The notes under the pieces were generated by a model, which worked only from the letters and a program-made list of their open reading frames with translations, was not told where the DNA came from and did not search any database. Positions 1 through 40,009 of a stretch of 48,540 nt of DNA are shown here, piece by piece. This DNA comes from Magnetospirillaceae bacterium. GTDB lineage: Bacteria > Patescibacteriota > Saccharimonadia > Saccharimonadales > EFPC-124. The stretch is taken from contig DATLJN010000076.1 in the NCBI GenBank assembly GCA_035538835.1, positions 1-48,540 on the forward strand. The letters run 5' to 3'. Position 1 is the stretch's first letter. Every line of letters begins with the position of its first letter. Both the position numbers and the translations under genes were made by a program.

Positions 1-1285
1 GGGCCGGAATGTTGATCAGGTGGGTGCGCAGGGTAGCGCCGCGGGCGGCGGTGTAGCGGGCGGTGCCGGTCAGGGTGGCGGCGGCGCGTAGCAGGTTGTG
101 GCAGATCGCGGCGAGGATGTTCCAGGCGGTGTTGGCGGCAAAAGAACCGGAGGGTTGGTGTGCCCAGGGTCCGTCGATCAGGTCGGACCAGACGGTTTCG
201 CAGATGGCGTGGTGGCGGTGGGTGAGGTCGGCTTGGTCGACGGGTTCGGTGTTGTTGGTGAAGAACGGGTGGTAGCGCCAGACCGGGAACAGCGGGTCCT
301 GGGTGTTGGCGTCCAGGACGCGGCGTACGACCAGCCAGCCGGTAAACGCGTGCGGGGTGTCGGCGAAGGCGGTGTATTCCACTTCGGCGACTTGCGCGTC
401 GGAGATCAGTTCGCCGGTGTCGGGATCTTCGTGGGCGCCTGGGTAATCGACGGGGACGTAAGCGTCGTCGGGGATGCTGTTGATCGCGGCGTCGACGCAA
501 TTGTTGCGGGCTATCGCGAAGGAGAAGGTGGCGCCGGCTTTGACGACCGCGGCGACCACCTTGCCGCTGCAGAACGCCGAGTCGCCGCGCATGAGAATGT
601 TGTGGGCCTGTGCACCGCAGGCTTGGGCGGTGTTGATCGCCTCGGTGACCATGCCGGCCGCGCCCCGCGACGAACCGGCACGCCCGGCCCGTAACCGCAC
701 CCCGGCCACCACCGGCGCGGCTATCCGGGTGCAGATCGTGGTTACCAGTGGTGACAGGCCGCGGCGCAGGACGGTCTTGCCGGCGATTTTGGTGTGGCCG
801 AACGAGGCGCCCTGCTTGGCTTTGCCGTACACCGGACGCAGCAGCGAATCGATGTCGATGAAGCAGCGCTCCTGGATGCCGTCCAGCAGCCCTGTCTGCT
901 GCGCCAGCGCGACCAGATGCCGGCGCAGCACCGCCGCAAGCTGCAGGGTATGGCCGTGGGTGAACTCGCGTAACAGGATCCCCAACGTGGCGTTGGCGTA
1001 CACCCCGCCGAAGAGTTGTTTCATCCCACCGGCACGGATGACGTCCAGGTCGTCGATGCTGTCCGCACCGGCGGCCATCCCAGCCACGATAGAGGTCAGC
1101 TTCGGTGTCGGGTTGGCCGCGCCGGAGCGGACCCGCTCGCTGGTGAACCGGACATGCTCATCCAGCAGCCGGGACAACCCGGCCTGCTCGGCCAGTTCCA
1201 GCAGCGGCACCAGACCCGCATGCGACACCAGATTTTCCTCGTCGAACACCGCGCTATCACCGCGCCAGGCATGAGATGCTTGCAC
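1..1285 (-). CDS. IS1380-family DDE transposase (C-terminal end beyond window start)
   Basis: Absent from the ORF track because its stop lies outside the window. Manual minus-strand translation from GTG 1285 stays open to position 1: VQASHAWRGDSAVFDEENLVSHAGLVPLLELAEQAGLSRLLDEHV...GADSIDDLDVIRAGGM...FGHTKIAGK... This N-terminal pattern is recalled from actinobacterial IS1380-family transposases. Codons are GC3-rich. Confidence 0.7.
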   Translation of the reverse strand, partial: MQASHAWRGDSAVFDEENLVSHAGLVPLLELAEQAGLSRLLDEHVRFTSERVRSGAANPTPKLTSIVAGMAAGADSIDDLDVIRAGGMKQLFGGVYANATLGILLREFTHGHTLQLAAVLRRHLVALAQQTGLLDGIQERCFIDIDSLLRPVYGKAKQGASFGHTKIAGKTVLRRGLSPLVTTICTRIAAPVVAGVRLRAGRAGSSRGAAGMVTEAINTAQACGAQAHNILMRGDSAFCSGKVVAAVVKAGATFSFAIARNNCVDAAINSIPDDAYVPVDYPGAHEDPDTGELISDAQVAEVEYTAFADTPHAFTGWLVVRRVLDANTQDPLFPVWRYHPFFTNNTEPVDQADLTHRHHAICETVWSDLIDGPWAHQPSGSFAANTAWNILAAICHNLLRAAATLTGTARYTAARGATLRTHLINIPA

Positions 1286-1286
1286 C

Positions 1287-1359
1287 GAGAGTGCCTTTCC
1301 AAGCCGGTCTGATCAAGGTCCTAGACAAACCTGATTATCCCAGCAGGACAGGCACTCTC
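1287..1359. repeat. 10-bp perfect inverted repeat GAGAGTGCCT (1287-1296) / AGGCACTCTC (1350-1359) next to the transposase start
   Basis: Read directly from the sequence. It could fold in the transposase 5' leader or lie near the IS terminus. Confidence 0.5.
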
Positions 1360-1751
1360 ATCACATTTCTACGCCACCGTTTGGACACAATGGACCGACC
1401 CCGTCCACGGATTCAGGCTAAGAGTGAAAACTCGTGACGGTGCCTTGAGGTCAAAGGCTGCCAGTCGGTGGTGTTAAATCCACAAAAGTTGTTGACTAAA
1501 TAAACTAAATAATTAAATCTCAAATGGTGCGGGAACGGTGAACCCTGGTGGCGCGCAAAAGCTCGTGGAAGAACATGTGCGCGCCTCCGTGGACTCACCA
1601 TAACCGGCATATTTACCGGCTTCGTTTATTTAAGCATGTCTTGATCTTGCCCTCAATGTGGTGGGTCTGTTCGTCATGCGTGAGGCCCAGTGGATATGCC
1701 GGTACTCCTCCAAAACCCAAGCGACATAACGGAAGGGAGAGGTATGACTAA

Positions 1752-1940
1752 GTGACCAACGTAGACAAACCCGAGCCGGGCAACCCGATCGTCGTCACCG
1801 GCCAGGAGCGGGCGCAACCGGCGGTGCGGCTGCTTGCCAGAGCTGCCATTGAGCTTGCGCGGCAACAGATTTCAGAATCCAAGCGTCAAGCGGAGACCAC
1901 TGGCGACACGCCCGAGCACGAGGGCGGTCGCCGTGCCTGA
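1752..1940 (+). CDS. small hypothetical protein (62 aa), first gene of the transfer module
   Basis: GTG start is preceded by GGAAGGGAGAGG. The frame is GC3-rich. Its stop overlaps the GTG start of the next gene (GTGCCTGA). Confidence 0.4.
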   Translation: MTNVDKPEPGNPIVVTGQERAQPAVRLLARAAIELARQQISESKRQAETTGDTPEHEGGRRA

Positions 1941-4140
1941 CCTTTGCTGGTTCGAAATCCACCCGCCGCGGGAGGTCGACCTGGCCGCGGTCACGGCGGT
2001 TATCCGCCCGCTGGCATCACGACCACGCTACGGCTTTCCCGCTGCGACGCCGCCCGTCGTCTTCGAAATGTGGAGCATCGGCGGCAAAGTTTCGTGGCTG
2101 CTCGGCATGGACCACCGGCTGTCCGGGAGCCTTCCAGCTCAGCTTCAAGCACACCTGCCGCGCCTTGGCCTGACACCCCAACCGACGCCACAGCGGCCGG
2201 CGCTGTCGGTCGGCGCGACTGTCCGCCTGGCCGGGTTGTCCTCGCCGCTGCGTACCGACACGGCGGGCGCGGTGAGCGCCGAACTTAGCTCCACCCTTTC
2301 GCGGCTGGGCAAAGACGAAGCCGCCTGCGTCCAGTGGGTCGTAGGTTCGAGCCAGTCGCGGGTCATTAGCCCGGCGAAGGTGGAGTTGGCCAAGGCGCTC
2401 GGTTTCCGCCCAGGCCATGGGGCGGTGCCGACACCGACCACGGAGCGGCTGTTCCGTGAGAAGGCCGCCGAACCGCTGTTCGGCGTACTTGGCCGCATCG
2501 CGGCTGCGGCCAAGGATTTCAGTCGCGCCAGCGCCATAGTGCGCGGCGTGGGCAGCGCCCTCCATCTCCTCAGTGCCGAACACGCCAGCCTGCGGGTCGG
2601 CCGGACAGATGCCGGAACCGCGCAGCGGCTCCACGACGCGGCCAAGCCGCCGTTTAGCTGGAGCGCAATCTTGAACGCCAGGGAGCTGGCCGCAGTCATC
2701 GGTTGGCCGACACAGGACGATGTGCCGGACCACCTGCCGACCGTCGGCGGGCACATTAACCTGGTTCCGTACCCGTTGTTGGGGGCGGAGCCGGATGGCG
2801 ATACGCACCCAAGCGAGCGGGTAATCGGGGAGAGCCTGCACCCGGCGCAGCGCGGGCAGCTGGTCACCATGCCGATTGCAAGTGCCAACCACCATACCCA
2901 CCTGATAGGTCCGACCGGTTCCGGAAAATCCACGCTCCTGTGTGGATTAATCCAAGCTGACATCGCGGCTGGACGCGGAACGCTTGTCGTCGAACCGCGT
3001 GGGGATCTCATAGAGGATGTGTTGGCCCGGATTCCAGCCGACCGCCGTGACGACGTGGTGGTCATCGACCCGGCGGACGCCTCGCGCGGCGTTGTCGGAC
3101 TCAATGTGCTTTCCGGACCGCGCGAAACCGCCGAACGCCGTGCCGACGAATTGGTTGGTCTGCTGGCAGCTATGGCTGGCAGCAACTGGGGACCCAGAAC
3201 AGCCGACGTCGCCCTGCACGCAATCCTCACGGCCGCAAGGCTTCCGGACGGCACCCTGCCGGATGTCGTGCAGCTGTTGACTAATCCGGGCTTTCGCCGC
3301 CGGGTGTTGGCGCAGGTTGGCGACCCGCTGGTGCTTTCGCCGTGGTGGGCGGGCTTCGAGGCTCTATCGGACGGTGAGAGAAGCCAATACATAGCGCCGT
3401 TGCTCAATAAACTCCGCGCCTTCCTTTCCAGGGATGTACTGCGGCAGATGACCGGCCAGTCCAGTCCAGCGTTCAGCTTCGACGATCTATTTACCAAGCG
3501 GCGCATTGTTTTGGCCAACCTGAATCGCGGGCTTCTCGGCGGCCCGGTATCCAACCTACTCGGTGCGCTGGTGCTCAGCCAGGTATGGGCGGCGCTGCAA
3601 CGCCGCACGGCTGTGCCGCGCGAACGGCGAAGCGTTACCGGCCTGTATGTGGATGAGTTCCAGGACTACGTGGATATCGTCGGTGGCCTCGACTTTGGCG
3701 ACGCACTCGCCCAGTCGCGCGGCCTGGGCGGAGCGTGGACACTGGCACACCAGCACTTCGCGCAGCTGTCGTCCGGCCTTCGGGCGGCGGTCCTCGCCAA
3801 CGCTCGCTCACGAATCACCTTTCGCCCGGGAACGGACGACGCGAAAGCCCTGGCCGTCGCCTTCGGATCGCGGCTCACCGCAGAAGATTTGCTCCGCCTT
3901 GGCAGCTACGAAGCCGTCGCCCAAATCCACCTGCACGGCCAGCCGACCCAACCATTCGCGGTGCGCACCCTGCCGCTCAGCCCGTGGACGAGTAAACCCG
4001 ACGAACTTCGCCGTTCAAGCGCCGAGCGTTACGGGATGGATGGCGCGGCAGTCGATGCCGCCCTTGCCGAACGCTGGCACGGCACGGGCGGCGGATCTCC
4101 CGATGAGCCCATCGGGGCGAAGCCGAGGCGACGGCCATGA
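1933..4140 (+). CDS. TraD/TraG/VirD4-like (type IV coupling protein-like) P-loop ATPase
   Basis: Walker A is GPTGSGKST and Walker B-like is LYVDEFQDY, followed by TLAHQHFAQL and ANARSRITFR. No N-terminal TM segment is seen. Start is set at GTG 1933, in frame with ORF-track 1834..4140, because the upstream part overlaps the small ORF. Confidence 0.65.
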   Translation: MPDLCWFEIHPPREVDLAAVTAVIRPLASRPRYGFPAATPPVVFEMWSIGGKVSWLLGMDHRLSGSLPAQLQAHLPRLGLTPQPTPQRPALSVGATVRLAGLSSPLRTDTAGAVSAELSSTLSRLGKDEAACVQWVVGSSQSRVISPAKVELAKALGFRPGHGAVPTPTTERLFREKAAEPLFGVLGRIAAAAKDFSRASAIVRGVGSALHLLSAEHASLRVGRTDAGTAQRLHDAAKPPFSWSAILNARELAAVIGWPTQDDVPDHLPTVGGHINLVPYPLLGAEPDGDTHPSERVIGESLHPAQRGQLVTMPIASANHHTHLIGPTGSGKSTLLCGLIQADIAAGRGTLVVEPRGDLIEDVLARIPADRRDDVVVIDPADASRGVVGLNVLSGPRETAERRADELVGLLAAMAGSNWGPRTADVALHAILTAARLPDGTLPDVVQLLTNPGFRRRVLAQVGDPLVLSPWWAGFEALSDGERSQYIAPLLNKLRAFLSRDVLRQMTGQSSPAFSFDDLFTKRRIVLANLNRGLLGGPVSNLLGALVLSQVWAALQRRTAVPRERRSVTGLYVDEFQDYVDIVGGLDFGDALAQSRGLGGAWTLAHQHFAQLSSGLRAAVLANARSRITFRPGTDDAKALAVAFGSRLTAEDLLRLGSYEAVAQIHLHGQPTQPFAVRTLPLSPWTSKPDELRRSSAERYGMDGAAVDAALAERWHGTGGGSPDEPIGAKPRRRP

Positions 4141-5081
4141 CCGCTCACAGCCCTACCGACCGCCCTACCCTTCGCCTCGGGCCAGGGGTAGCCCCGACGT
4201 GCGAGAACACCGAGCAGATCGCATCTACTGTCTCGTCGTCTTCCGCGCAGCTTCAGACGACTCGACCGCCCGGCCGCTCAGGACGGATCGCACGCCTGCG
4301 GGAGCGGATGAGCGGGCGTGACGCAGGGATGCTGCAATCGCTGGCACTGCTTCGCCTGATGACCGGCGGGCAGGTCGAGCGGCTGCATTTCACCGAAGGC
4401 TCGCCCGCCACCCGTGGCCGACGCTGCCGGGCGGCGCTCAAGCGGCTGGCCGAGCTTCGGCTCATCGTGCGGCTCGGGCGTCGCATTGGCGGGGTGCACG
4501 CCGGAAGCGCCGCATATGTCATCGGGCTTTCGGGCTACGGCCAGGCGGTCGTCGATAGCGATGGGCCTATGGGCGGCCGGCGACGGCGCGTCTGGGAAAC
4601 CAAGCCAAGCTTTACCGATCACGTCTTGGCGGTCGCCGACCTCTACGTTCGCCTGGTCGAGACCGAGCGGCTCGATCAGTTGGAGTTGCTCGAATTTCAG
4701 GCAGAGCCGCAGGCTTGGCGGCAATCCACCGGCAGTCACGGGCAAGCGGTGACCCTCAAGCCAGATGGATTCGTCCGGCTCGGCGTTGGCGATATGGAAC
4801 TGAGCAACTTCGTCGAGGTGGACATGGACACCGAAAGTCCGGCCACCCTTGGCCGCAAGATGCAGGCCTACGCCGCCTACTACAGAACAGGTGTCGAACA
4901 ACGCAGGCATGGCGTGTTCCCGCGCGTCTGGTGGCTTGGCTGCTCGGCGCGCAGCGTGGAACGCATCGCTCGCGTGGTACGCGGCCTGCCCCTTGATACT
5001 CAACCGCTGTTCGGCGTCGCTCATCTGGAGGACGCCATCCAGTCCCTAACAACCACGGCAAAGGAGGCCGCTCGTGAATGA
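4137..5081 (+). CDS. replication-relaxation (Replic_Relax) family protein
   Basis: ATGA overlap with the upstream gene. N-terminal winged-helix-like segment [19 protein letters not shown], then KPDGFVRL...FVEVDMDTE and YAAYY motifs as recalled for this family. The family commonly sits next to coupling-protein ATPases on Gram-positive mobile elements. Confidence 0.6.
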
Positions 5082-6136
5082 ACAATGAAACATCCCAACC
5101 CGCTAAACCCGCACTGCCACTGGGGCAAATCCTGATCGGAGATGCCCGTAAGCGGCTGCGCGAGCTGCCAAAGGGCAGCATCGACTGCTGTATTACCAGC
5201 CCACCGTATTACCAACTCCGCGACTACGGCCAGAAGGAGCAGCTCGGACTGGAAGACACCGTGGACGACTGGGCACTGAATCTCGCCGATGTCTGCGACG
5301 ACATCGCCCGTGTGCTCAAGCCGACTGGCGCGCTGTGGCTGAACCTCGGCGACCAGTACTCCAGTCACATCCGGCAGGGAACAGCGTTCAAGAGCTTGTT
5401 GCTGGGACCGCAACGGGTGGCGCTGGAGCTGGCAAAGCGGGGCTGGATCATCCGCAACCAGATCGTCTGGGCAAAGAAAAATCCAATGCCCTCAAGCGTT
5501 TCCGACCGCTTTACCAGTAGCTACGAGGTGCTGCTGTTCTGCGTGCGCTCGCGCCATTACCACTTCGACCTCGACCGGGTACGCCAGCCGCACGTCACTC
5601 CGACGCAGCCGAAGCGGCCGAAATCCCTGGACTACCAATACCTACCGAAACATGCCGTGCCCGAAGGCGGGCTGGTCGACCTCAACCGCGGGCTGGGTGC
5701 ACTCAAGGCGCGGGGTTTGGTTGGACATGATCTTGGGAAGAACCCCGGCGACGTCTGGCATTTGCCCACCGCCGCCTACCATGGCTCCCACTTCGCCACT
5801 TTCCCCGTGAGCCTGGTCGAGAGGCCGCTACTAGCCACCTGCCCCGCGAGGGTCTGCGTGGCTTGCGGAACGCCGTGGAAGCGGCGGCCGACGAACAGAA
5901 ACACCCGACCGGTTCGGCTCGGCACGTTGGTGTCGTGCTGCGAGTGCGAAGCAGAGACCCTGCCAGGCGTTGTGCTCGATCCGTTTCTCGGCAGCGGAAC
6001 CACAGCAGTCGCTGCGGAGACGTACGGCCGGCGGTGGATCGGGATCGAGCTCAACCCTGTGTACGTCGAGCTAGCCAACGCGCGCCTGCACCAGTGGCGG
6101 GCCGAACAGGCTGAGCGACAAAGCAAACGCCCGTAG
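5078..6136 (+). CDS. beta-class N4-cytosine/N6-adenine DNA methyltransferase (orphan)
   Basis: Catalytic motif [11 protein letters not shown] is near the N-terminus and the AdoMet motif [12 protein letters not shown] is near the C-terminus. A Cys-rich insert (CPARVCVAC...CCEC) lies between them. No adjacent endonuclease-like ORF. Confidence 0.8.
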
Positions 6137-6229
6137 CAACGTGTCGGCCTCGTCGGTGCCCTGCGGCCGAATGTCGTCATCCCTAAAAACCAAAGTGGAT
6201 GGCCGGCCGCTCGCACCGAGGAGGAGTCC

Positions 6230-6550
6230 ATGACGGACCCGAAGAGCTCCGGCGTCAAGACGCTGGGCGTGAAGCTCGACGATGCGCTGCACAGCCAGTT
6301 CTCACTGGTTGCAGCGCTCGATGAGCTGAGCCTCAACGACGCCGTGATCCGCGCGGTGGCGCTGTACGTCAAGACCAAGCAGCAAGAGCCGGACTTCGCA
6401 GCCAAGGCCGCTGCCAAGCTCGAGGAGATCGAGCGGGAAGCGGCAGCCAGGCGCGGAGCGATCCAGGCGCTGTTTGGCGGCACTGTGCCAGCCGAGGAAA
6501 CCAAGGCGGCCAAGGGAAGCAAGCGCGGCGGTGGCGAGACGGGCGCGTAG
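6230..6550 (+). CDS. ribbon-helix-helix (CopG/Arc/ParG-like) DNA-binding protein
   Basis: SD GAGGAGGAG lies upstream of the ATG. KTLGVKLDDALHSQFSLVAALDELSLNDAVIRAVALYV fits a strand-helix-helix layout. The C-terminal tail is low-complexity and Ala/Lys/Glu-rich. Confidence 0.5.
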   Translation: MTDPKSSGVKTLGVKLDDALHSQFSLVAALDELSLNDAVIRAVALYVKTKQQEPDFAAKAAAKLEEIEREAAARRGAIQALFGGTVPAEETKAAKGSKRGGGETGA

Positions 6551-6560
6551 GTGCGCCGAA

Positions 6561-6586
6561 GGTGGAGGAGCCTTCGCTCCTCCACC
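6561..6586 (+). terminator. G+C-rich hairpin after the RHH gene (GGTGGAGGAG-CCTTCG-CTCCTCCACC), no T-tract
   Basis: Perfect 10-bp stem beginning 11 nt after the stop codon. This is an actinobacterial-style terminator without a U tail. Confidence 0.4.
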
Positions 6587-6799
6587 GCACTACCCTCACG
6601 AAATTCGAACTCGTATGGGAGTGCTGAGAATTCCGCAGCACACTCTTTCGAGGAATGCTGCAATAATGACCTTGTTAACATAGGAGGAAGTAAATGTATG
6701 ACACAACGCAAAGATGGCTTTGACCAGGACGGACAACGCGATACCCTACCTGACCCTGGCGCGAAATCTCGCGCCAACGGCGATCTGGGAGGGCGGGAA

Positions 6800-7204
6800 A
6801 TGCATTCCACGAATGACGGCGCGAAACGCGCCATGGTCTATATCCGTGTGGCGAGCGCGGAGCATGGTTCAGAGGAACAGGCGCAACAGCAGGAGGTCGC
6901 CTGCAGGGAAACAGCTCAGCGGCTCGGGTTCACGCCCGTTGCCGTATATAGCGATATTGGCAGCACCGAGCGCCCCGGGCTGCGGCGGATGCTGGATGAG
7001 CTGGACACCATCAAGCCGACATCAGTCATAACCTTGGATCCCAGCCGGTTCGGACGAAAATACCAAGAGAACATGGCGGTGATGACTCGGCTGAGAGCGG
7101 CGGGCGTGGAGCCGGTATTTGCGCATGACCCAACCGAGGATCCGCTCGGACTTTCTTGGCGGCGGAGCGAAGCCTCTGTGGTGCGAGAGGCTGATGCAAA
7201 ATGA
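6800..7204 (+). CDS. serine-recombinase (resolvase) catalytic-domain-only protein
   Basis: SD GGGAGG precedes ATG 6800. MVYIRVASAE..., YSDIGSTERPGLRRMLDEL and ITLDPSRFGRK resemble the resolvase N-terminal domain. No HTH or recombinase domain follows. The usual RVS[ST] motif reads RVAS here. Confidence 0.55.
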   Translation: MHSTNDGAKRAMVYIRVASAEHGSEEQAQQQEVACRETAQRLGFTPVAVYSDIGSTERPGLRRMLDELDTIKPTSVITLDPSRFGRKYQENMAVMTRLRAAGVEPVFAHDPTEDPLGLSWRRSEASVVREADAK

Positions 7205-9180
7205 CCGCACATCGCGAACACGAAGCGCCGCCGCTGCACCTACCGCACGACAACGGCACCGACCAGGATCTTGATAGGCGGTCGGCGCGAAGCCTGCGGC
7301 GTGCAGCCAACAGCGAGGTGACGGTTGCTGGTCGGCGCGCCCTTGTCGTGCAGCTCAACGACACCGGTTCTGGTATTGCGGAAATGGCTACCTTCCTACG
7401 GGTAAAACGACCAGGGCTGGAACAACTGACCGCTACCCATATCCCCAGGGTGGCGATATATCTTCGGGTCAGCACCGAGGAGCAAGCCCGAGTCGGCGGC
7501 CAAGCCGAGGGCTTTTCGATCCCGTACCAACGCGACGCTTGCCTGACGAAGGTGCGCGACTTGGGCGGCATCCTGGCAGGCGAATACGTGGATGCCGGAG
7601 AGAGCGCAAAATCGGCTGACCGTCCCGAGCTGCAACGAATGCTTAAGGACCTCAAGGCCAAACGGATCGACTACGTCCTCGTCCACAAGATCGACCGGCT
7701 GGCCCGCAACCGTGCCGACGACGTCGCCATTAATACGGCCATCGCGGCGGCCGGTGCCAAGCTCATCTCGGTGGCCGAGCCGGTCGATGAAACCCCGGCG
7801 GGCAAGCTGCTCTACAACATGATGGCCGGGGTTGCCCAGTACCACTCCGACAACCTGGCCGTCGAGGTGCTCAAAGGCATGGTCACCAAGGCAAAGATGG
7901 GTGGTACGCCCTACCGTGCGCCACTGGGCTACCTCAACCACCAGGAAATCCACGATGGCATCGTGGTGCGCAGTATCGTGCTCGACCCTGAGCGAGCGCC
8001 GCTGATCCGCTGGGCCTTCGAGCAATATGCCCTGGGCATCTGGTCGTTGAGCCGCTTGGTGGACGCCTTGAATTCGCAAGGCCTGACCTCCCGGCCGACG
8101 CCCAAGCGGCCAGCCAAGCCGATCTCGCTCAACGGCATCCATTTCCTGATGCGCAACCCCTACTACATCGGTGTGGTGCCCTACCGGGGTGTGTTCCACG
8201 AAGGCAAACACGAGCCGCTGGTCAGCGTAGAACTGTGGCTACGGGTCCAAGACGTACTGACCGCCCACCGCGTCTCGGGCGACAAACAGTTCAAATACGA
8301 GCATTATCTCAAGGGCAGTATCTTTTGTGGTCAATGCGGTGCCCGGCTGGTCTACAGCCGCAACCGCGGCCGGGGCGGGGTCTACGAATATTTCGACTGC
8401 CTGTCCAAGAAAACCAAGCGACGCCCCTGCACCCAACGAGCTGTGCGCCTGCATAAGGTCGAAGCTGGCGTCGAACGGCTCTACGAGCACTTCCATCTTT
8501 CGGCTGCAAGGGCCACGCAGATCCGGGACGCGGTGCTCACCGAACTCGCGGCCGACCGTGACGAAGCAGACCGAGAAGTCCAGCGTGCGCTCAAGCGACT
8601 CCGCGCGGCGACTGACCAGCAGGCCAAACTGCTCCAGGCGCACTACGCCGGGGCGGTGCCGCTCGAGCTCATGAAGGCCGAGATGGAGCGGTTGACCAGC
8701 GAGAAAGCCCAAGCCGAGCGTTCCATCGCCAGCGCCAAGTCTTCTGTCGCCGACCTGGAAACCACGCTCAACGCGGCGCTAAAGATTGCTACCGAATGCC
8801 ATACCTATTACCACGAGGCTGAACCAGCCATCCGCCGCAGGCTCAACCAAGGCTTCTTCAAGAAGCTATATATACATGAAGACGGCCAGGTTGACCGCTT
8901 TGAGCTGACCGAGCCGTTTGCCACGCTGCTTGACCGCAGCCTGCCAGGCGTGCTTGCCAACCAGCGGCAGTCCCGGCTCGCCGGGGACCTTGCAGAGCAC
9001 CAGGAGCACAGGCTCGACACCGAAATCACAGCCGAAGACCGCACCAGCCCGTCAGCGGTACTGGCAAAAACCTTCACATGTGTGTCGAAAACAGACCAAC
9101 CGGACGGCGGTGCCATCCGGTTGGGTTTGAACATCCATGATGTGGTGCTGGGAGAGGGAGTCGAACCCCCGAAGACATAA
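7201..9180 (+). CDS. large serine recombinase (integrase)
   Basis: The catalytic domain shows AIYLRVSTEEQ, ADRPELQRML and VHKIDRLARN. It is followed by a recombinase domain, a zinc ribbon (CGQCGARL...DC...C) and a long coiled-coil. ATGA overlap with the upstream gene. Alternative starts are ATG 7384 or GTG 7450. The last ~40 codons lie in mid-G+C DNA, and the stop (9178-9180) falls inside antisense tRNA-Tyr. Confidence 0.9.
   Translation: MTAHREHEAPPLHLPHDNGTDQDLDRRSARSLRRAANSEVTVAGRRALVVQLNDTGSGIAEMATFLRVKRPGLEQLTATHIPRVAIYLRVSTEEQARVGGQAEGFSIPYQRDACLTKVRDLGGILAGEYVDAGESAKSADRPELQRMLKDLKAKRIDYVLVHKIDRLARNRADDVAINTAIAAAGAKLISVAEPVDETPAGKLLYNMMAGVAQYHSDNLAVEVLKGMVTKAKMGGTPYRAPLGYLNHQEIHDGIVVRSIVLDPERAPLIRWAFEQYALGIWSLSRLVDALNSQGLTSRPTPKRPAKPISLNGIHFLMRNPYYIGVVPYRGVFHEGKHEPLVSVELWLRVQDVLTAHRVSGDKQFKYEHYLKGSIFCGQCGARLVYSRNRGRGGVYEYFDCLSKKTKRRPCTQRAVRLHKVEAGVERLYEHFHLSAARATQIRDAVLTELAADRDEADREVQRALKRLRAATDQQAKLLQAHYAGAVPLELMKAEMERLTSEKAQAERSIASAKSSVADLETTLNAALKIATECHTYYHEAEPAIRRRLNQGFFKKLYIHEDGQVDRFELTEPFATLLDRSLPGVLANQRQSRLAGDLAEHQEHRLDTEITAEDRTSPSAVLAKTFTCVSKTDQPDGGAIRLGLNIHDVVLGEGVEPPKT
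9098..9122 (-). terminator. probable intrinsic terminator of the tRNA-Thr/tRNA-Tyr operon
   Basis: The minus strand reads AACCGGA-loop-TCCGGTT, followed by GGTCTGTTTTCG and a second T-run (GGTTTTTGCC). It lies 20 nt downstream of the tRNA-Tyr 3' end. Confidence 0.4.
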
Positions 9181-9228
9181 GTCGTCTGATTTACAGTCAG
9201 ATGCGTTTGACCACTTCGCTATCCCAGC
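9143..9228 (-). tRNA. tRNA-Tyr (anticodon GTA), class II with long variable arm, CCA encoded
   Basis: Minus strand: GCTGGGA-TA-GCG..CGC-A-TCTGA-CTGTAAA-TCAGA-long variable arm-GGGGG-TTCGACT-CCCTC-TCCCAGC-A-CCA. The acceptor and anticodon stems pair perfectly. Confidence 0.9.
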
Positions 9229-9246
9229 ATGCCTTAAAAATAAATA

Positions 9247-9323
9247 TGGAGCCGACGGAGGGATTCGAACCCACGACCCGCTGTTTACAAAACAGCCGCT
9301 CTGGCCAACTGAGCTACGTCGGC
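9247..9323 (-). tRNA. tRNA-Thr (anticodon TGT), CCA encoded
   Basis: Minus strand: GCCGACG-TA-GCTC..GAGC-G-GCTGT-TTTGTAA-ACAGC-GGGTC-GTGGG-TTCGAAT-CCCTC-CGTCGGC-T-CCA. There is one T:T mismatch in the T stem. Confidence 0.85.
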
Positions 9324-9352
9324 ACGTTTACGGCCGGTCGGATACGCTCCAA

Positions 9353-9381
9353 ATAATACCTGATTTACCCTGTTTTTTCAA
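9353..9381 (-). promoter_or_regulatory. sigma70-like promoter for the tRNA operon
   Basis: Minus strand has TTGAAA, a 17-nt spacer, then TATTAT. The -10 element ends 29 nt upstream of the tRNA-Thr 5' end. Confidence 0.35.
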
Positions 9382-9426
9382 CCCGGCTGGCAGTCCAGAC
9401 ACTATCGCCGGACCGCCAGCCGCTCT

Positions 9427-13737: not shown

Positions 13738-14697
13738 GTGGAGATATTTTGGAGTTCCATCGACCTTGTACGCCTAACCTTTTTGGTTGGCGCCGTACTG
13801 GCACTGCTGTATAAGAAAAAGTTTGGTGTCACGCCAGGCGGCATCATTGTCCCCGGGATTCTTGCAAGCCTTATCTTTATCAACTTTCCTGCTTTTATTG
13901 TTATGTTAGCGCTCAGTGTTCTGTGCTGGGCGATATATAAGTATACGTTCGGTCGTTTTGCGTTGACGCGCCGCTGGGCGTCGCTTATTACAATCTCTGT
14001 ATCTGTCGTGCTGGGACTTATATCTATGGTTGCATTTAACTCGGCACACATCTTTAACCAAGAATTATTGGTAAGTCTCGTGGTACCTGGCCTTATTGCT
14101 ATTAGTGCACGCAAATATGGGCTGGGTAAGGTGATGATAGGAACACTATCGGTTACAGCAGTAAGCTACCTGGCCGGTTGGGCGCTCGCCTATGCTATCC
14201 CTTACGAGATACTTACCTACATGACCGTCAAACTCGGCACCTACACACCTTTGAGCCTCGAAAATCCTGCGCTCGTATTTATTGTGAGTCTTTTAGCCGC
14301 GGTGCTGGTGTATTACAAATTTGGTATCAGAGGCGGTGGCTACATGGTTGCGCCATTTATTGCGGCTGTAACCGTAAGCTCGCCAATACAAGCGCTCCTC
14401 GTTGCTGTGGGAGTCGCACTCAGTTATATCGCGGTGCGTTTGCTCCTACGCTTCACGCTTGTTATTGGGCTAGAGCGATTCGTGTTTAGCCTGGTGTGCG
14501 GCTACATTGTTATTACACTTATTGATTTACTCGCCACAATGGTTGTGATTCCTGGATACCGCCCAACGCCAATTGTGCTTATTATTGCCGTTGCCGTGTT
14601 TACCAACGACCTATCTTTGCAGTCACTCAAATCAACGCTGCTCAAGGGCTTTTCACCGACCCTAGCGATGGCACATCTCGCCAGATTGGCGGTGTAA
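13738..14697 (+). CDS. pgsC: PgsC/CapC-like poly-gamma-glutamate synthesis membrane protein, double length
   Basis: GVTPGGIIVPGIL and LVVPGLIAISARKYG match the two CapC VPG motifs. The second half repeats them in diverged form (GIRGGGYMVAPFI, MVVIPGYRP). The protein is polytopic. GTG start. Confidence 0.65.
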   Translation: MEIFWSSIDLVRLTFLVGAVLALLYKKKFGVTPGGIIVPGILASLIFINFPAFIVMLALSVLCWAIYKYTFGRFALTRRWASLITISVSVVLGLISMVAFNSAHIFNQELLVSLVVPGLIAISARKYGLGKVMIGTLSVTAVSYLAGWALAYAIPYEILTYMTVKLGTYTPLSLENPALVFIVSLLAAVLVYYKFGIRGGGYMVAPFIAAVTVSSPIQALLVAVGVALSYIAVRLLLRFTLVIGLERFVFSLVCGYIVITLIDLLATMVVIPGYRPTPIVLIIAVAVFTNDLSLQSLKSTLLKGFSPTLAMAHLARLAV

Positions 14698-14698
14698 A

Positions 14699-15925
14699 AT
14701 GTTCATTCTTGGCGCCGTTATTGTATTAGCTGCAGCTTACGTAGCTGTTGGTGTTATAAACCAACGACAACATTACAAAGCGATGCAAAACCTGGAACAC
14801 CGCATTCATGTTAACGGTATTCGCGGCAAGTCATCGGTGACGCGCTTGATCGCCGCTGCGCTGCGCGAAGGTAACATCAAAACTGCTGCTAAAACAACTG
14901 GCACCGCGGCACGTATTGTTGTCGACCACCAAAACGACACGCCTGTCCCGCGCAAAGAAGCCGACATTGCCGAGCAACGACGCATGCTTAAGTTTTACAC
15001 CGGCGATTTGCACCGCATGTACACCGGCGACGACTACAAAGCTGTTGTATTTGAGTGTATGGCGATCAACCCAATCTACCAACGTTACCTAGAAGATAAA
15101 ATCATGCACTCCACCATTGGTGTTATCACTAACGTACGCGAGGATCACGTCGAATTGCTCGGTACAACTCTGCCCGAAATTGCCCGCAGCCTTAGCATGA
15201 CCATCCCTAAAAACGGCCACCTCGTGACTGCCGAAACCAACCCTGAACTCCTGGCCATTCTTAAACAGGAGTGCGAAGTCCGCGGTAGTAAACTCCACGC
15301 TGTCGGCACCATGCGCATTACCGAAAAGCAAATGGCAGCCTTTAAACACTTTGAATATCGCGCCAATGTTGCCATTGCCGTTAAAGTGGCCGAGCTGCTC
15401 GGCGTTACACGCCAAACAGCGCTCAGCGGCATGCACAGCGCACAACCCGACCCCGGTGCCTTTATACTCAAGAAGTTTGAACGCGACACTAAAACCCTGC
15501 ACTGGGCAAACCTATTTGCCATTAACGACCGCGAAAGCTTTATTTTGACCGTTGATTCGCTACGTAAAAAAGTTGGTGCGCGCACCAAAAAAGCGGTGAT
15601 TCTTAATAACAGGCACGACCGTCCGGAACGCGTGGCGCAGTTTGTCGACATTGCTGTTAATTCGGTAAAAGCCGACTATATCTTTACCTTTGGCGACTAC
15701 GAAAACCAAGTACGCTATGAGCTTAAAAAATATCCAAACGTGCGCGTAAAAGTAATGCACCTTGGTAACGGCACCGAATACAAAGACGCGTCGGGCGAGG
15801 TATTGTTCGAACAAATTATCGGCACTATCAAGCAAAAAGAATGTATTTTGTTCGGTACGGTTAATATTCACACACGTCAGGCACAGTCGCTGTTAACGGT
15901 GCTGGAAGGCTCTAATGCGCACTAA
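14699..15925 (+). CDS. pgsB: poly-gamma-glutamate synthase PgsB/CapB (Mur-ligase-like amide ligase)
   Basis: An N-terminal TM helix, then HVNGIRGKSSVTRLIAAAL (P-loop), ECMAINP, ITNVREDH and PDPGA. It is collinear with Bacillus CapB as recalled. Confidence 0.85.
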   Translation: MFILGAVIVLAAAYVAVGVINQRQHYKAMQNLEHRIHVNGIRGKSSVTRLIAAALREGNIKTAAKTTGTAARIVVDHQNDTPVPRKEADIAEQRRMLKFYTGDLHRMYTGDDYKAVVFECMAINPIYQRYLEDKIMHSTIGVITNVREDHVELLGTTLPEIARSLSMTIPKNGHLVTAETNPELLAILKQECEVRGSKLHAVGTMRITEKQMAAFKHFEYRANVAIAVKVAELLGVTRQTALSGMHSAQPDPGAFILKKFERDTKTLHWANLFAINDRESFILTVDSLRKKVGARTKKAVILNNRHDRPERVAQFVDIAVNSVKADYIFTFGDYENQVRYELKKYPNVRVKVMHLGNGTEYKDASGEVLFEQIIGTIKQKECILFGTVNIHTRQAQSLLTVLEGSNAH

Positions 15926-16580
15926 AATTCCCGGGGCCGTTTTTGTAATGATTCTTGTTGGTTTCTTTAGCTACCTCACGTATCAACATTTCTTTTTTGA
16001 TGATACAGCCGTGGCAAAGTCGGCAATCCAATTTAAGATCGACCAGCTCAATATCGCCCCCGATGCGCCAGCTAAGCCACCCGAATATTTTGGGCTTAAG
16101 CGCGCCGAAGTCGCTTTGCAGGAATACCACAAAGGCGTTGTTGAACCAACGCCTGGCTGCAACTGCGGCCCCGATGTCGATAAATACACCGAGAGCACGC
16201 CCGCCCAGTGGTGCGCCATGTTTGTAAGCTGGGTGTCCAAAGAGGCCGGCGCGCCAATGTACGACGAACGCACAAAATCGTGGCGTTTTATGAACTCACG
16301 TCTGCTTATCGAATACCTAAAATTGAGCGGCACTTGGTATAGCCGTGAGGAAGTAATTACCAAAAACCTTAAGCCACGGCTCGGCGACTTTGTGTTCTTT
16401 TACCGCGGTGAGCTGGAAGAGAACTTAGGCCACGTTGATGTCGTTGTCGATGTTGATGGCGCGCCAGGCACTGCTGGTTTAATTGGTGGCAACATCCGCG
16501 ACCGCGTTATGTACCGCGAAAATTTCCCTTACCAAGAACATTATGGCTTTTTAGGCTTTGGCCGACCAGAGAAAGATTAG
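15915..16580 (+). CDS. membrane-anchored CHAP-domain cysteine peptidase/amidase
   Basis: An N-terminal TM helix. Candidate nucleophile in QWCAMFVSWV, and GDFVFF...GHVDVVV...GGN consistent with the CHAP Cys-His-Asx arrangement. Confidence 0.6.
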   Translation: MRTKIPGAVFVMILVGFFSYLTYQHFFFDDTAVAKSAIQFKIDQLNIAPDAPAKPPEYFGLKRAEVALQEYHKGVVEPTPGCNCGPDVDKYTESTPAQWCAMFVSWVSKEAGAPMYDERTKSWRFMNSRLLIEYLKLSGTWYSREEVITKNLKPRLGDFVFFYRGELEENLGHVDVVVDVDGAPGTAGLIGGNIRDRVMYRENFPYQEHYGFLGFGRPEKD

Positions 16581-16587
16581 GTTACGT

Positions 16588-38277: not shown

Positions 38278-38725
38278 ATAGTCCGCGTAAATCGGCAATA
38301 ATATTTAATAGTTCATCAGCGGTTTCGTGGAGATACATCCACCTTAATTGAGCAATGACACCCTCATCCTGCGTCCCTTCAGGGCCATAAATCAGATCTA
38401 AAAATTTGTCGGCATCATCTAGTTCAAGCCACAACTGTGCTTTTGCAACTTCATAACCTATCCGCGCCCGTTGGTTATTACCCCCTGCAAGGCTCTTTTC
38501 GGCGGTTAGTTCATAACCCTCCAGCAGTTCATGATGCCGTGGATTTGTCTTGTCAAAGCCGTTATCTGCGATGATTTGTGCAACTAGCTGCCGACGCGCC
38601 TCGCCGGCCTGAGGAGATTCTACATAATCCAATACTTCAACAACTGTGCCGAGCCTTTCATTGATGACTTCAAGTTCAGGATCGAGGCGTGCATAATGTT
38701 CGTGCGACTGATCTTGTTCGGTCAT
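38276..38725 (-). CDS. hypothetical acidic helical protein (149 aa)
   Basis: ORF-track frame. There is no SD, but a TATAGT box ends 7 nt before the ATG, so the mRNA may be leaderless. Confidence 0.4.
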   Translation of the reverse strand: MTEQDQSHEHYARLDPELEVINERLGTVVEVLDYVESPQAGEARRQLVAQIIADNGFDKTNPRHHELLEGYELTAEKSLAGGNNQRARIGYEVAKAQLWLELDDADKFLDLIYGPEGTQDEGVIAQLRWMYLHETADELLNIIADLRGL

Positions 38726-38836
38726 ATGTTTACTATATATAAACTTTCAAGAACGTGCAGTATCAATTTCCATTCTTGGAAATTTACAAATAATAAATAA
38801 GTGTTATAATTATAACGTTCTTTGACAAAATAATTC

Positions 38837-38886
38837 GTTACTGGTAGCTGTAAGGATATGGGCATATTCTTACAGCTACCAGTAAC
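38837..38886. repeat. 50-bp near-perfect palindrome (18-bp perfect arms GTTACTGGTAGCTGTAAG / CTTACAGCTACCAGTAAC, extendable to 24 of 25 symmetric positions)
   Basis: Read directly. It lies in the AT-rich divergent intergenic region, ending 25 nt before the SD of the serpin-like gene. Confidence 0.8.
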
Positions 38887-38922
38887 AGCTGGAGTAAGTA
38901 GCAAGACTTGAGAGGAGATCCA

Positions 38923-39882
38923 ATGTCTGGAATCCGAGACTTGGGCCGCACGAGTGGTACTGTCCCCGCCAGCACCGACCTTCCAACAATCACAGGCAGT
39001 ATCGCCTTCACGAACGGGCCCATCGCCCGTGCGCTGAACGAGTACGCCCTGGTCACTGGACTGAGCGGTCTGGAAGCGCTGCAGCTCGTTGGTACCAATC
39101 CCGGTCAGGCCGAGTTGATCGACTGGATCGTCACGCACTACGCGCAGATCGCCCATCTGCGGGATCTCACCTCGCTGGCAAGCCGCGACTACGCGGTGCT
39201 CAACAGCTTCCTGGAGGCCCACGGGTTCTCCCCGCTGTTCACACCGTTTCCTCAAAGCGATGTCGGCATCACCGCGATCCTCGACGCCCCCATGAAGTGG
39301 GTCGAGGCCGGAGAGCGCACCACCATCACCCGCATGGCCGGTAGTCAGCAGGCCACCTACCCCGCGTTCAAGCTCAAGAGCACTGGCGCGAAACGCCAGC
39401 ACCTTTTCGACGCCGGACCCTTCACCGACCGGGTCGTCATCAAAACTCAGAATGGTCACTTCGTCTACTTGGGCATGCTGCCCGAGGATATGGAAGGGCC
39501 GCGCGACGGCGCCGCCGTCCTGAAATTGGCGCGCCAAATGCTGGGAGCTCGGACTCAGGACACCCACGATCCGGCGGGAGTCATTCTGCCGATGATCAGC
39601 TTCGACAACGTCAGCGAGCTGCCGTGGCTCAACGGCCTCGCTGTTGGCAAGAGCGACACCCTTAACCAGTGCCGCCAGCACGTCAAGTTCTACATGAACG
39701 AGATTGGCGCGCGCATCTCCGCTGCTTTCGCCGGCGTGATGTTTCGTAGCGCGCCGCCTGCGCCGTATGTGATCAACCAGCACTTCGTGCTGGCCATCGC
39801 CGACGACACAACGCCAACCACAGTGCTGTACCTGCACCCCGACGATAGTTGGGCTGAGCCGCCCGCTGGAGTCATCCAGTAA
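38923..39882 (+). CDS. serpin-like protein (short N-terminal region), G+C-rich
   Basis: SD GAGGAG lies 5 nt before ATG 38923. The C-terminal ~200 aa are collinear with serpins as recalled. PMKW matches the s3A KGKW region, and MLPEDMEG matches LPDEG. ILPMISFDNVSELPWLNGLAV matches LPKLSI..DLK..L..LG. NEIGARISAAFAG is a hinge-like ExGxxxxAA. YVINQHFVLAI matches 10 of 11 positions of the PROSITE serpin signature as I recall it. Confidence 0.55.
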   Translation: MSGIRDLGRTSGTVPASTDLPTITGSIAFTNGPIARALNEYALVTGLSGLEALQLVGTNPGQAELIDWIVTHYAQIAHLRDLTSLASRDYAVLNSFLEAHGFSPLFTPFPQSDVGITAILDAPMKWVEAGERTTITRMAGSQQATYPAFKLKSTGAKRQHLFDAGPFTDRVVIKTQNGHFVYLGMLPEDMEGPRDGAAVLKLARQMLGARTQDTHDPAGVILPMISFDNVSELPWLNGLAVGKSDTLNQCRQHVKFYMNEIGARISAAFAGVMFRSAPPAPYVINQHFVLAIADDTTPTTVLYLHPDDSWAEPPAGVIQ

Positions 39883-39897
39883 CAATGTCAACGAGCC

Positions 39898-39918
39898 GCC
39901 GGGGGACCCATCCCCGGC
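39898..39918 (+). terminator. G+C-rich hairpin GCCGGGG-GACCCAT-CCCCGGC after the serpin-like gene
   Basis: 7-bp perfect stem, 16 nt after the stop. Confidence 0.35.
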
Positions 39919-39979
39919 AGTTCCCCAGAATCACTCAGCCGCATGGGTGGTTGTGGGGAGCTAACTTAATAAATTCTAC

Positions 39980-40009
39980 AAAAAACACCTCGCAGTTGAG
40001 GTGTTTTTG
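39980..40009. terminator. bidirectional terminator shared by fusA and the serpin-like gene (AAAAAACACCTC-GCAGTT-GAGGTGTTTTT)
   Basis: The stem is flanked by A- and T-tracts, 16 nt from the fusA stop. Confidence 0.65.

What the first reader, a model, noticed from the sequence alone, without database searches (positions are those of the whole stretch)
9040..9230. The integrase reading frame leaves the island, crosses the tRNA terminator and stops inside antisense tRNA-Tyr
G+C-rich island DNA ends near 9055-9065. The large serine recombinase ORF has no stop there. It continues about 40 codons through mid-G+C DNA that looks like the native terminator of the tRNA-Thr/tRNA-Tyr operon (hairpin 9098-9122 plus T-runs on the minus strand). 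It then runs 38 nt into the 3' half of tRNA-Tyr before reaching TAA at 9178-9180.

This implies the attachment crossover lies inside the 3' end of the int coding sequence. Integration and excision would then give the recombinase different C-termini, a possible switch on activity or stability (a comparable idea exists for integration-dependent phage immunity systems). It also means int transcription runs antisense into a tRNA gene.
Basis: inference. Interest (0 to 1): 0.65.

Follow-up and report, generated by a model that had tools for sequence, protein, structure and literature searches.

The report
Integrase gene ends inside target tRNA
A mobile element sits exactly at the 3' end of a tRNA-Tyr gene, and its serine integrase gene has no stop codon of its own, so its last 12 codons are borrowed from the antisense tRNA; about 40 related elements beside many different tRNAs share this layout.

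Summary
The sequence facts are right. A 659-codon large serine recombinase (LSR) ORF (7201-9180) reads 38 nt into antisense tRNA-Tyr (9143-9228) and stops at TAA 9178-9180.

The proposed boundary (9055-9065) is wrong. Two related Saccharimonadales genomes without the island match the window only from 9143, the tRNA's encoded CCA end. Each then has its own, unrelated terminator or another tRNA.

The stretch 9060-9142 is element DNA. Homologous LSRs beside at least 13 tRNA types keep the same layout: an A-run, a hairpin (an antisense terminator for the tRNA), the motif rGTTyGMA, an 11-nt spacer, then the CCA end. In 39 loci the 75 codons before the tRNA hold 0 stops in the ORF frame, against 94 and 118 in the other two frames.

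So the crossover does lie inside the int ORF, but about 12 codons from its end, not about 52. The terminator is supplied by the element, not native. The C-terminus must differ after excision, but the tail is predicted disordered and a regulatory role is untested.

This is not an assembly chimera. The element family also occurs in an actinobacterial isolate (76% nt identity), while this host is a Saccharimonadales bacterium.

The parts
1..9142 (+). Right-hand 9.1 kb of an integrated mobilizable or conjugative element. Its left end lies beyond the contig start.
   Evidence: G+C is 0.62-0.675 against about 0.50 in the host. Gene order matches L001, L002, L085, L094 and L095. Similarity to island-free relatives L163 and L164 starts only at 9143.
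1834..4140 (+). TrwB-like coupling protein (768 aa)
   Evidence: Pfam TrwB_AAD_bind. It is 77-79% aa identical to L001 and L002.
4137..5081 (+). Replic_Relax family protein (putative relaxase or replication protein)
   Evidence: Pfam PF13814, E = 1.5e-44
5078..6136 (+). N6/N4 DNA methyltransferase
   Evidence: Pfam PF01555, E = 7.8e-42
6551..7204 (+). Small ORF holding only part of a resolvase catalytic domain, just upstream of the LSR
   Evidence: Pfam Resolvase profile positions 1-101 of 145. A similar ORF lies upstream of the LSR in L085, L094 and L095.
7201..9180 (+). Large serine recombinase ORF, 659 codons. The folded part ends near residue 580. Residues 596-659 are predicted disordered.
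   Evidence: S91 invariant; pLDDT below 50 for residues 596-659
9086..9124 (-). Element-borne intrinsic terminator for the tRNA-Thr/tRNA-Tyr operon: stem-loop 9124..9096, then TCTGTTTTCG 9095..9086. It is encoded antisense within LSR codons 'KTDQPDGGAIRLG'.
   Evidence: An equivalent hairpin with a different sequence is present in 31 of 42 related loci. It is absent from the island-free relatives, which have their own terminator.
9124..9142 (+). Putative P arm of the attachment site: motif GGTTTGAA (9124-9131) plus an 11-nt variable spacer
   Evidence: The motif rGTTyGMA lies 19 nt before the antisense CCA in nearly all related loci, whatever the tRNA. In L153 a candidate inverted copy lies at the other end of the element.
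9143..9145 (+). TGG, the antisense of the encoded CCA end. This is the junction, and the crossover most likely lies here.
   Evidence: Identity with L163, L164 and the X6 and X8 contigs begins exactly here. TGG is the only sequence shared by the candidate attL and attR of L153.
9142..9180 (+). The last 12 codons (VVLGEGVEPPKT) plus TAA of the LSR ORF, encoded by host tRNA-Tyr DNA
9143..9228 (-). Host tRNA-Tyr(GTA), intact and 100% identical to that of island-free relatives
9247..9323 (-). Host tRNA-Thr(TGT), upstream in the same operon
9353..9381 (-). Promoter-like site (TTGAAA-17-TATTAT) for the tRNA operon, conserved in L163 and L164
   Evidence: alignment A2 columns 17-50

Best explanation
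The window holds the right end of an integrated mobilizable or conjugative element. It encodes a coupling protein, a Replic_Relax protein, a DNA methylase and a large serine recombinase (LSR). The LSR integrates the element at the very 3' end of tRNA genes, here tRNA-Tyr(GTA) of a Saccharimonadales bacterium.

The junction is at 9142/9143, and the crossover is most likely inside the encoded CCA (TGG, 9143-9145). The LSR gene is the last gene and reads outward. Its final roughly 20 element-encoded codons are laid over two DNA signals:
- On the opposite strand, an intrinsic terminator (9086-9124). This replaces the native terminator that integration cuts away from the tRNA operon.
- The P arm of the attachment site (9124-9142).

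The ORF has no stop codon of its own. It is closed by the first in-frame stop in the antisense tRNA (TAA, 9178-9180). In the excised circle it must be closed by whatever the other end of the element supplies.

Shown: the anatomy, the junction position, the family-wide conservation and the absence of stops. Inferred: the exact crossover dinucleotide, the roles of the terminator and the P arm, and any regulatory consequence.
For: 1. Empty sites. L163 and L164 are the same locus in related Saccharimonadales, carrying trpS, rluD-like, holB, the TPR gene, tRNA-Thr and tRNA-Tyr. Their tRNA-Tyr is 100% identical to the window's, and they diverge from the window immediately after ...CCCAGCACCA. L163 continues with its own hairpin plus T-run. 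L164 continues with tRNA-Thr(GGT). Logan contigs in runs X6 and X8 show the same break at 9143.
2. Homologs. 17 LSRs at 48-62% identity keep the C-terminal 45 residues. In about 44 of 82 fetched loci a minus-strand tRNA of at least 13 different types follows the LSR at once. The order is an A-run, a hairpin, rGTTyGMA, then 11 nt, then TGG, with 19 nt from the start of the motif to the TGG.
3. Hairpin. It is kept as a structure while its sequence changes: 31 of 42 loci have z < -2, and the median dG is -19.8. In the window it is called terminator-like on the minus strand.
4. Reading frame. 39-40 loci read through the CCA in the same frame, with the stop 7-143 codons further on. Stops in the 75 codons before the tRNA number 0 in the ORF frame against 94 and 118 in the other frames. 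In the last 21 codons the counts are 0 against 31 and 44.
5. No tRNA-fragment direct repeat of 15 nt or more lies within 10-12 kb upstream in 23 long loci. This fits the minimal crossover of a serine recombinase.
6. L153. Candidate attL and attR share only TGG and are flanked by inverted arms. Only 1 of 300 shuffles scores as well.
7. Not a chimera. A k-mer unitig in run X2 spans 8782-9302 with 0 differences. Island and host have equal depth in four runs.
Against: - The window lacks the left end of the island, so its own attL, attP and excised-form C-terminus are unknown.
- The exact crossover rests on one candidate attL (L153, whose LSR is only 41% identical). That candidate is only modestly significant once 22 loci tried are taken into account. 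Candidates in L001 and L094 are no better than chance.
- The tRNA is identical in empty and occupied sites, so a crossover a few nt deeper inside the tRNA cannot be excluded.
- The terminator and P-arm roles are inferred from sequence only.
- A few relatives do not fit simply. L083, L097 and L115 have no tRNA after the LSR. L103, L118 and L134 have only a 3' half tRNA.
Confidence: 0.82

Rival explanations
1. The island ends at 9055-9065. The next 40 or so codons are the host's native tRNA terminator region, and the crossover lies there.
For: There is a local G+C drop from 0.70 to 0.53-0.57 around 9040-9129. A hairpin plus T-run is present on the minus strand.
Against: Island-free relatives share nothing with 9060-9142 and have different terminators. 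The same peptide and DNA layout follows LSRs beside other tRNAs in other hosts, including an actinobacterial isolate.
Confidence: 0.02
2. The crossover lies deeper inside tRNA-Tyr, in the T-loop or anticodon loop. The element would carry its own copy of the tRNA 3' part, as in classical tyrosine-integrase islands. The stop codon at 9178-9180 could then be element DNA, and the C-terminus would not change on excision.
For: The tRNA is identical in occupied and empty sites, so the boundary inside it cannot be seen. L103, L118 and L134 show an LSR followed by only a 3' half tRNA.
Against: No tRNA-fragment repeat of 15 nt or more is found upstream in 23 long loci. L001 and L002 have LSRs 84% identical, yet their tRNA parts are unrelated beyond TGGTGC. 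The candidate L153 junctions share only TGG. Serine recombinases use a 2-bp crossover (established knowledge).
Confidence: 0.1
3. The junction is an assembly chimera. A high-G+C actinobacterial contig would have been joined to a Saccharimonadales contig through a shared tRNA-like sequence.
For: The G+C change is sharp. The LSR's named relatives are actinobacterial. The join lies at a tRNA.
Against: An independent unitig in run X2 covers 8782-9302 without a branch. A run X4 unitig covers 9000-9179. Island and host depths match in four samples: 6.9/7.4, 2.9-4/3.5-4.7, 4.3/2.6 and 3.5/3.5. The same high-G+C element beside a mid-G+C flank recurs in L001, L085, L094 and L095.
Confidence: 0.02
4. 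The missing stop codon is functional. In one version, int mRNA ends at the two-way hairpin before any stop, so it is a non-stop message subject to tmRNA tagging. In another, convergent tRNA transcription and the changed tail couple integrase level or activity to the integration state.
For: There are 0 stops in 39 x 75 codons, although the tail is predicted disordered and the 11-nt spacer is free to vary. On the + strand the hairpin is followed by GGUUUG. A promoter-like site drives the tRNA operon towards int.
Against: There are no expression data. The tRNA-encoded tails differ widely in length and sequence. The candidate excised tail in L153 is just 8 residues. The open frame could be kept only because the disordered tail up to the P arm has some role.
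Confidence: 0.2

Closest known systems
[quoted passage not shown] 2011, PMC3218068)
   Same: A serine recombinase integrates a mobile element at a tRNA gene. The hosts are actinobacterial. The element is conjugative or mobilizable.
   Different: That paper calls such cases rare and reports one tRNA per group. Here a single family sits beside at least 13 tRNA types. The junction is at the CCA end, the int ORF reads into the tRNA, and a terminator is built in. I did not test sequence relatedness to those recombinases.
Classical tRNA-targeting islands and phages with tyrosine integrases (sublocation classes of Williams 2002, as cited in PMC3218068)
   Same: The element inserts at the 3' side of a tRNA gene and leaves the tRNA intact, with int next to the att site.
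   Different: Those elements carry a 15-60 nt copy of the tRNA 3' part, which leaves a direct repeat. No such repeat was found here, and the enzyme is a serine recombinase.
Integration-dependent immunity of mycobacteriophage BPs and relatives (PMC4557955)
   Same: attP lies inside a coding sequence, so integration changes the C-terminus of the product.
   Different: There the gene is the repressor and the integrase is a tyrosine recombinase. The removed tail is a degradation tag with a demonstrated effect. Here the gene is the serine integrase itself, only about 12 codons change, and no effect has been shown.
Myxophage Mx8 intP/attP and the SSV1-type integrases of archaeal viruses
   Same: attP lies within the integrase gene, so integration alters (Mx8) or splits (SSV1) the int reading frame. 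The targets are tRNA genes.
   Different: Both are tyrosine recombinases. In Mx8 a large C-terminal part is replaced, and in SSV1 the gene is cut in two. Here only a short disordered tail is exchanged.
Large serine recombinases of phages (phiC31, Bxb1, A118/LI)
   Same: The domain set is the same: catalytic domain, recombinase domain, zinc ribbon and coiled coil. No long att identity is seen.
   Different: Identity to phage and plasmid LSRs is below 31%. In those phages attP lies outside int (from my own knowledge). Here the P arm is inside the int ORF, and the target is a generic tRNA end.

Membership tests
Large serine recombinase (LSR) | N-terminal resolvase catalytic domain with the nucleophilic serine | tested here: met
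   PF00239, E = 6e-31, residues 84-235. The motif YLRVSTEEQ has S91 invariant in 18 sequences.
Large serine recombinase (LSR) | Recombinase domain, zinc ribbon and coiled-coil insertion | tested here: met
   PF07508 and PF13408. Long paired helices at 435-482 and 488-531 in the model.
Large serine recombinase (LSR) | 2-bp crossover, with att sites that share little beyond it | tested here: inconclusive
   No long repeats in 23 loci. The candidate L153 attL and attR share only TGG. No biochemical test was possible.
tRNA-integrating genomic island, ICE or IME | Inserted at the 3' side of an intact tRNA gene, with an empty site in relatives | tested here: met
tRNA-integrating genomic island, ICE or IME | Direct repeat of the tRNA 3' part at the far end | tested here: not met
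   Not testable in the window, because the left end is missing. Not found in 23 related long loci.
tRNA-integrating genomic island, ICE or IME | Transfer functions (relaxase, coupling protein, mating-pore genes) | tested here: inconclusive
   A coupling protein and a Replic_Relax protein are present. No VirB4 or other pore genes are seen in the 9.1 kb held or in the roughly 10.7 kb upstream stretch of L001. This suggests a mobilizable rather than a self-transmissible element.
Systems in which attP lies inside a coding sequence (integration-dependent immunity, Mx8 intP) | The reading frame crosses the att junction, so the integrated and free forms encode different C-termini | tested here: met
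   The ORF runs from the element (up to 9142) into the host (9143-9180). The same holds in 39-40 related loci.
Systems in which attP lies inside a coding sequence (integration-dependent immunity, Mx8 intP) | The change of C-terminus alters the stability or activity of the product | not testable with these tools
   This needs expression and stability assays.
Intrinsic (Rho-independent) terminator | G+C-rich hairpin followed by a T-rich tract on the transcribed strand | tested here: met
   13-pair stem with 9 G-C pairs, tail TCTGTTTTCG. z = -4.46. Recurs in 31 of 42 loci.
Intrinsic (Rho-independent) terminator | Transcripts end there | not testable with these tools
   No RNA data exist for this soil organism.

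The most novel reading that the evidence does not exclude
This LSR family may recognise generic features of a tRNA gene end (GCACCA plus the T-loop) rather than one tRNA. That would let it hop between tRNA types and between phyla (Actinomycetota and their Saccharimonadales epibionts). The strict absence of an own stop codon may be a selected device. It would tie integrase production or stability to the integration state, either through a non-stop message ending at the two-way terminator or through collision with tRNA transcription.
Probability: 0.2. Interest if true: 0.8.

Novelty: new variant of a known kind. Interest (0 to 1): 0.6.

Why it matters
If this holds, it defines a broad and so far undescribed class of serine-integrase elements with four linked properties:
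- They use the CCA end of almost any tRNA gene as a landing site.
- They bring their own terminator to repair the operon they cut.
- They fold the attachment arm and that terminator into the integrase's own reading frame.
- They leave the stop codon to the target.

This gives a simple sequence rule for locating the att sites of such integrases, which is useful for delimiting islands and for integrase-based genome engineering. It also offers a testable case of integration-state-dependent gene ends in a serine recombinase. Finally, it gives a concrete example of one element family shared by Actinomycetota and Saccharimonadales, where relaxase-bearing elements are reported to be scarce (10.1101/2025.01.22.634366).

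Tried and rejected
- E. coli genomes, megablast with the host flank: no match.
- PLSDB plasmids and INPHARED phages with the LSR protein: nothing above 31% identity, so no free attP form.
- Exact look-up of the TPR protein: not on record. The wrong ends were trimmed in the first cluster look-up, and this was repeated correctly.
The empty sites came instead from the TPR protein's relatives and from Logan contigs.
- Search for tRNA-fragment repeats, and for inverted copies of the P arm, at the left ends of 22-23 long loci. Only L153 stands out. L001 (36 of 300 shuffles as good) and L094 (184 of 300) are at chance level.
- L083, L097 and L115 as possible attP forms: the geometry is inconsistent, so this is left open.
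- Attempt to find an empty tRNA-Leu(GAG) site to fix the left end of L001. The contigs L165 and L166 end at or inside the tRNA.
- Reading the contig extension left of window position 1. The Logan contigs reach 150-507 nt further, but their letters are not shown.
- Rfam search: only the two tRNAs.
- The assembly-chimera idea was rejected.
Full report
**What is at the coordinates.**
- ORF 7201..9180 (+) encodes 659 residues with Resolvase, Recombinase and Zn_ribbon_recom domains, so it is a large serine recombinase (LSR).
- ARAGORN and Rfam place tRNA-Tyr(GTA) at 9143..9228 and tRNA-Thr(TGT) at 9247..9323, both on the minus strand.
- The ORF's TAA is at 9178-9180, 38 nt inside antisense tRNA-Tyr.
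- A 13-pair hairpin (9096-9124) followed on the minus strand by TCTGTTTTCG is called terminator-like. It folds far better than shuffles, z = -4.46.
- G+C is 0.62-0.675 up to 9000 and about 0.50 afterwards.
The local G+C dip at 9040-9129 (0.53-0.57) is real, but it is no deeper than dips inside the gene.

**Is the join real?**
- The window is a whole 48,540-base contig from soil metagenomes.
- In run X2 an independent k-mer unitig covers 8782-9302 without a difference, and in run X4 one covers 9000-9179.
- Island and host sides have the same depth in all four runs.
- Together with the recurrence of the same architecture elsewhere (below), an assembly chimera is rejected.

**Where the island really ends.**
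- The host side encodes RpoC, EF-G, EF-Tu, SecY, TrpRS and HolB.
- Relatives of the TPR protein next to the tRNAs are named Candidatus Saccharimonas or Saccharimonadales.
- Two relatives, L163 (98% aa identical in that protein, 76-86% nt over the region) and L164, hold the same locus without any island.
- Their tRNA-Tyr is 100% identical to the window's. The alignment breaks immediately after ...CCCAGCACCA.
  - L163 continues TAGTAAAAGCCCGTGTACCATGCACGGGCTTTTATATT, its own terminator.
  - L164 continues with tRNA-Thr(GGT).
  - The window continues CATCATGGATGTTCAAACC....
- Logan contigs of two further soil runs (X6, with 0 differences over 9143-9240, and X8) break at the same base and also carry their own hairpin plus T-run.
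- The right end of the island is therefore at 9142/9143. The 9060-9142 stretch is not native host DNA.

**The stretch 9060-9142 belongs to the element family.**
- Seventeen homologs at 48-62% identity keep the C-terminal residues 'RPSAVL..F.C.SKTDKPDGGAVRLGLHxxxLVPPxGFEP'.
- The final 'LV..G(F/L)EP' is simply antisense CCA, acceptor stem and T-loop.
- I examined L001, L002 and 80 metagenome loci fetched with the LSR alignment. In about 44 of them a minus-strand tRNA follows the LSR at once: Tyr, Leu, Arg, Val, Gly, Ala, Glu, Met, Ser, Pro, Phe, His or Thr.
- All show the same order on the + strand: an A-run, a hairpin, the motif rGTTyGMA (GGTTTGAA at 9124-9131 here), 11 variable nt, then TGG.
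- The motif starts 19 nt before the TGG, even where the CCA is not encoded.
- The hairpin differs in sequence but persists as a structure: 31 of 42 loci have z < -2, and the median dG is -19.8 kcal/mol. On the tRNA strand it is followed by a T-rich tract.
- The conserved 'PD...VR' residues are the two arms of the stem (CCGGAC/GTCCGG).
- I read this as a terminator that the element brings with it, to replace the one that integration separates from the tRNA operon. That operon has a conserved promoter-like site at 9353-9381.
- AlphaFold gives pLDDT below 50 and no secondary structure for residues 596-659. The folded protein ends near residue 580, where distant homologs also stop aligning.
- The 'conserved C-terminus' is therefore best explained by constraints on the DNA, not on a folded domain.

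**The open frame is not an accident.**
- In 39-40 loci the LSR ORF crosses the CCA in the same frame (xTG GTx) and stops 7-143 codons further on.
- In the 75 codons before the tRNA, these loci have 0 stops in the ORF frame, against 94 and 118 in the other two frames. In the last 21 codons the counts are 0 against 31 and 44.
- This holds in loci with 42% G+C as well.
- No member ends its integrase before the junction. The stop is always supplied by the target.

**Where the crossover is.**
- The empty sites bound it on the outside: nothing beyond the CCA is shared.
- On the inside, 23 long loci show no tRNA-fragment repeat of 15 nt or more within 10-12 kb upstream.
- L001 and L002, whose LSRs are 84% identical, sit at tRNA-Leu(GAG) and tRNA-Arg(CCG). 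Their sequences agree only through TGGTGC.
- In L153 there is a candidate left junction...TTCTAA|TGG|AGTTTTTATTTGAACC. Its arm is the inverse of the right arm, AAGTTCGAATAAGAACTCAT|TGG|. Only TGG is shared. Just 1 of 300 shuffles scores as well, but 22 loci were tried.
- The best reading is a crossover within the encoded CCA. A position a few nt deeper cannot be excluded for the window itself.
- Consequence: residues 648-659 (VVLGEGVEPPKT) are host-encoded. The excised form must end differently. For L153 the prediction is ...NSLEFLFEPF* instead of ...NSLVAGTGFEPVTFGL*.

- The core idea survives in corrected form. The att crossover lies inside the int ORF, the C-termini differ between the two states, and int is convergent with a tRNA operon.
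- Whether the tail change matters is open.
  - Against: the tails are heterogeneous and predicted disordered.
  - For: the complete absence of stops.
- A non-stop message ending at the two-way hairpin, or interference from tRNA transcription, are speculative mechanisms that I rate at about 0.2.

**Comparison with what is known.**
- Ghinet et al. (PMC3218068) call serine-recombinase integration into tRNA genes rare. They list eight Mycobacterium AICEs in one tRNA-Leu gene, and phiRSM1 in tRNA-Ser.
- attP inside a coding sequence is known for the repressor of BPs-type mycobacteriophages (PMC4557955). From my own knowledge it is also known for the tyrosine integrases of Mx8 and SSV1.
- I found no description of an LSR family that combines all of the following: targeting the CCA end of many tRNAs, an att arm and a replacement terminator inside the int ORF, and no stop codon of its own. 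Five literature searches were run, and two were read in detail. This is absence of evidence only.
- No close relative exists in PLSDB or INPHARED.
- I class the finding as a new variant of a known kind.

**Noticed on the way.**
- The island backbone (1413-6642) is 76-77% nt and 72-84% aa identical to an element at tRNA-Arg(CCG) in the isolate Allorhizocola rhizosphaerae (Micromonosporaceae). The host here is Saccharimonadales, a group known as epibionts of Actinobacteria (10.1101/2025.01.22.634366). That paper found only 109 relaxases in 103 CPR genomes.
- Similar high-G+C elements beside 47-48% G+C flanks occur in L001, L085, L094 and L095.
- The LSR is much more diverged (58%) than the backbone.

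Noticed in passing
window 1-9142 compared with L002 4726-9957: The host is a Saccharimonadales (CPR) bacterium. The island backbone is nevertheless 76-77% nt and 72-84% aa identical to an element in the actinobacterial isolate Allorhizocola rhizosphaerae. One element family is therefore shared by Actinomycetota and their presumed epibionts. The island keeps 62-67% G+C inside a 50% G+C genome.
   Followed up: partly
window 6551-7204 (+): A small ORF holds only part of a resolvase catalytic domain ('YIRVASAEH'; Pfam profile positions 1-101 of 145) and overlaps the LSR start. A similar ORF precedes the LSR in L085, L094 and L095. Possible roles are an accessory or directionality factor, or a remnant.
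   Followed up: partly
window 7201-9180 compared with L001 and L002: The LSR is only 58% identical to those of L001 and L002, while the neighbouring backbone proteins are 72-85% identical. The L001 and L002 LSRs are 84% alike yet sit at different tRNAs (Leu-GAG and Arg-CCG). This points to module exchange or fast change of the integrase, and to loose tRNA specificity.
   Followed up: partly
run X7 contig over window 9143-9384: A related Saccharimonadales tRNA-Tyr is preceded by ...AACAGTGGTTCAAGTAAGGGCTTT|TGG. This looks like the P arm of a different member of the family, so the same tRNA-Tyr would be occupied by another element in another soil.
   Followed up: no
window 9124-9131 and 9160-9167: The P-arm motif GGTTTGAA is the inverse of the antisense T-loop GTCGAACC 28 nt away, with the midpoint at 9145/9146. 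The junction is thus a near-palindrome built from the element arm and the tRNA T-arm. What this means for site recognition is unknown.
   Followed up: partly
L103, L118, L134; L083, L097, L115: In some relatives the LSR is followed by only a 3' half tRNA that stops matching at the anticodon loop. In others it is followed by TGGTG... with no tRNA at all. These could be excised forms, pseudo-sites, or targets broken by later insertions.
   Followed up: partly
L163 11383-11830 compared with L164 11390-11392: Between tRNA-Tyr and tRNA-Thr(GGT), L164 has 3 nt and L163 has about 450 nt, including a terminator and a small ORF. The same tRNA end has therefore been a site of change in an island-free relative as well.
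   Followed up: no
window 13738-17784: PgsC-like and PgsB-like poly-gamma-glutamate synthesis genes lie in a Saccharimonadales genome. At the same place in L163 the called genes hit CapC, a Mur-ligase domain, CHAP and PGA_cap.
   Followed up: no
window 39001-40000: G+C is 0.617 inside host DNA of about 0.50. ORFs lie on both strands (38722..39891 - and 38908..39882 +), and the minus-strand ORF has no NCBIfam hit.
   Followed up: no
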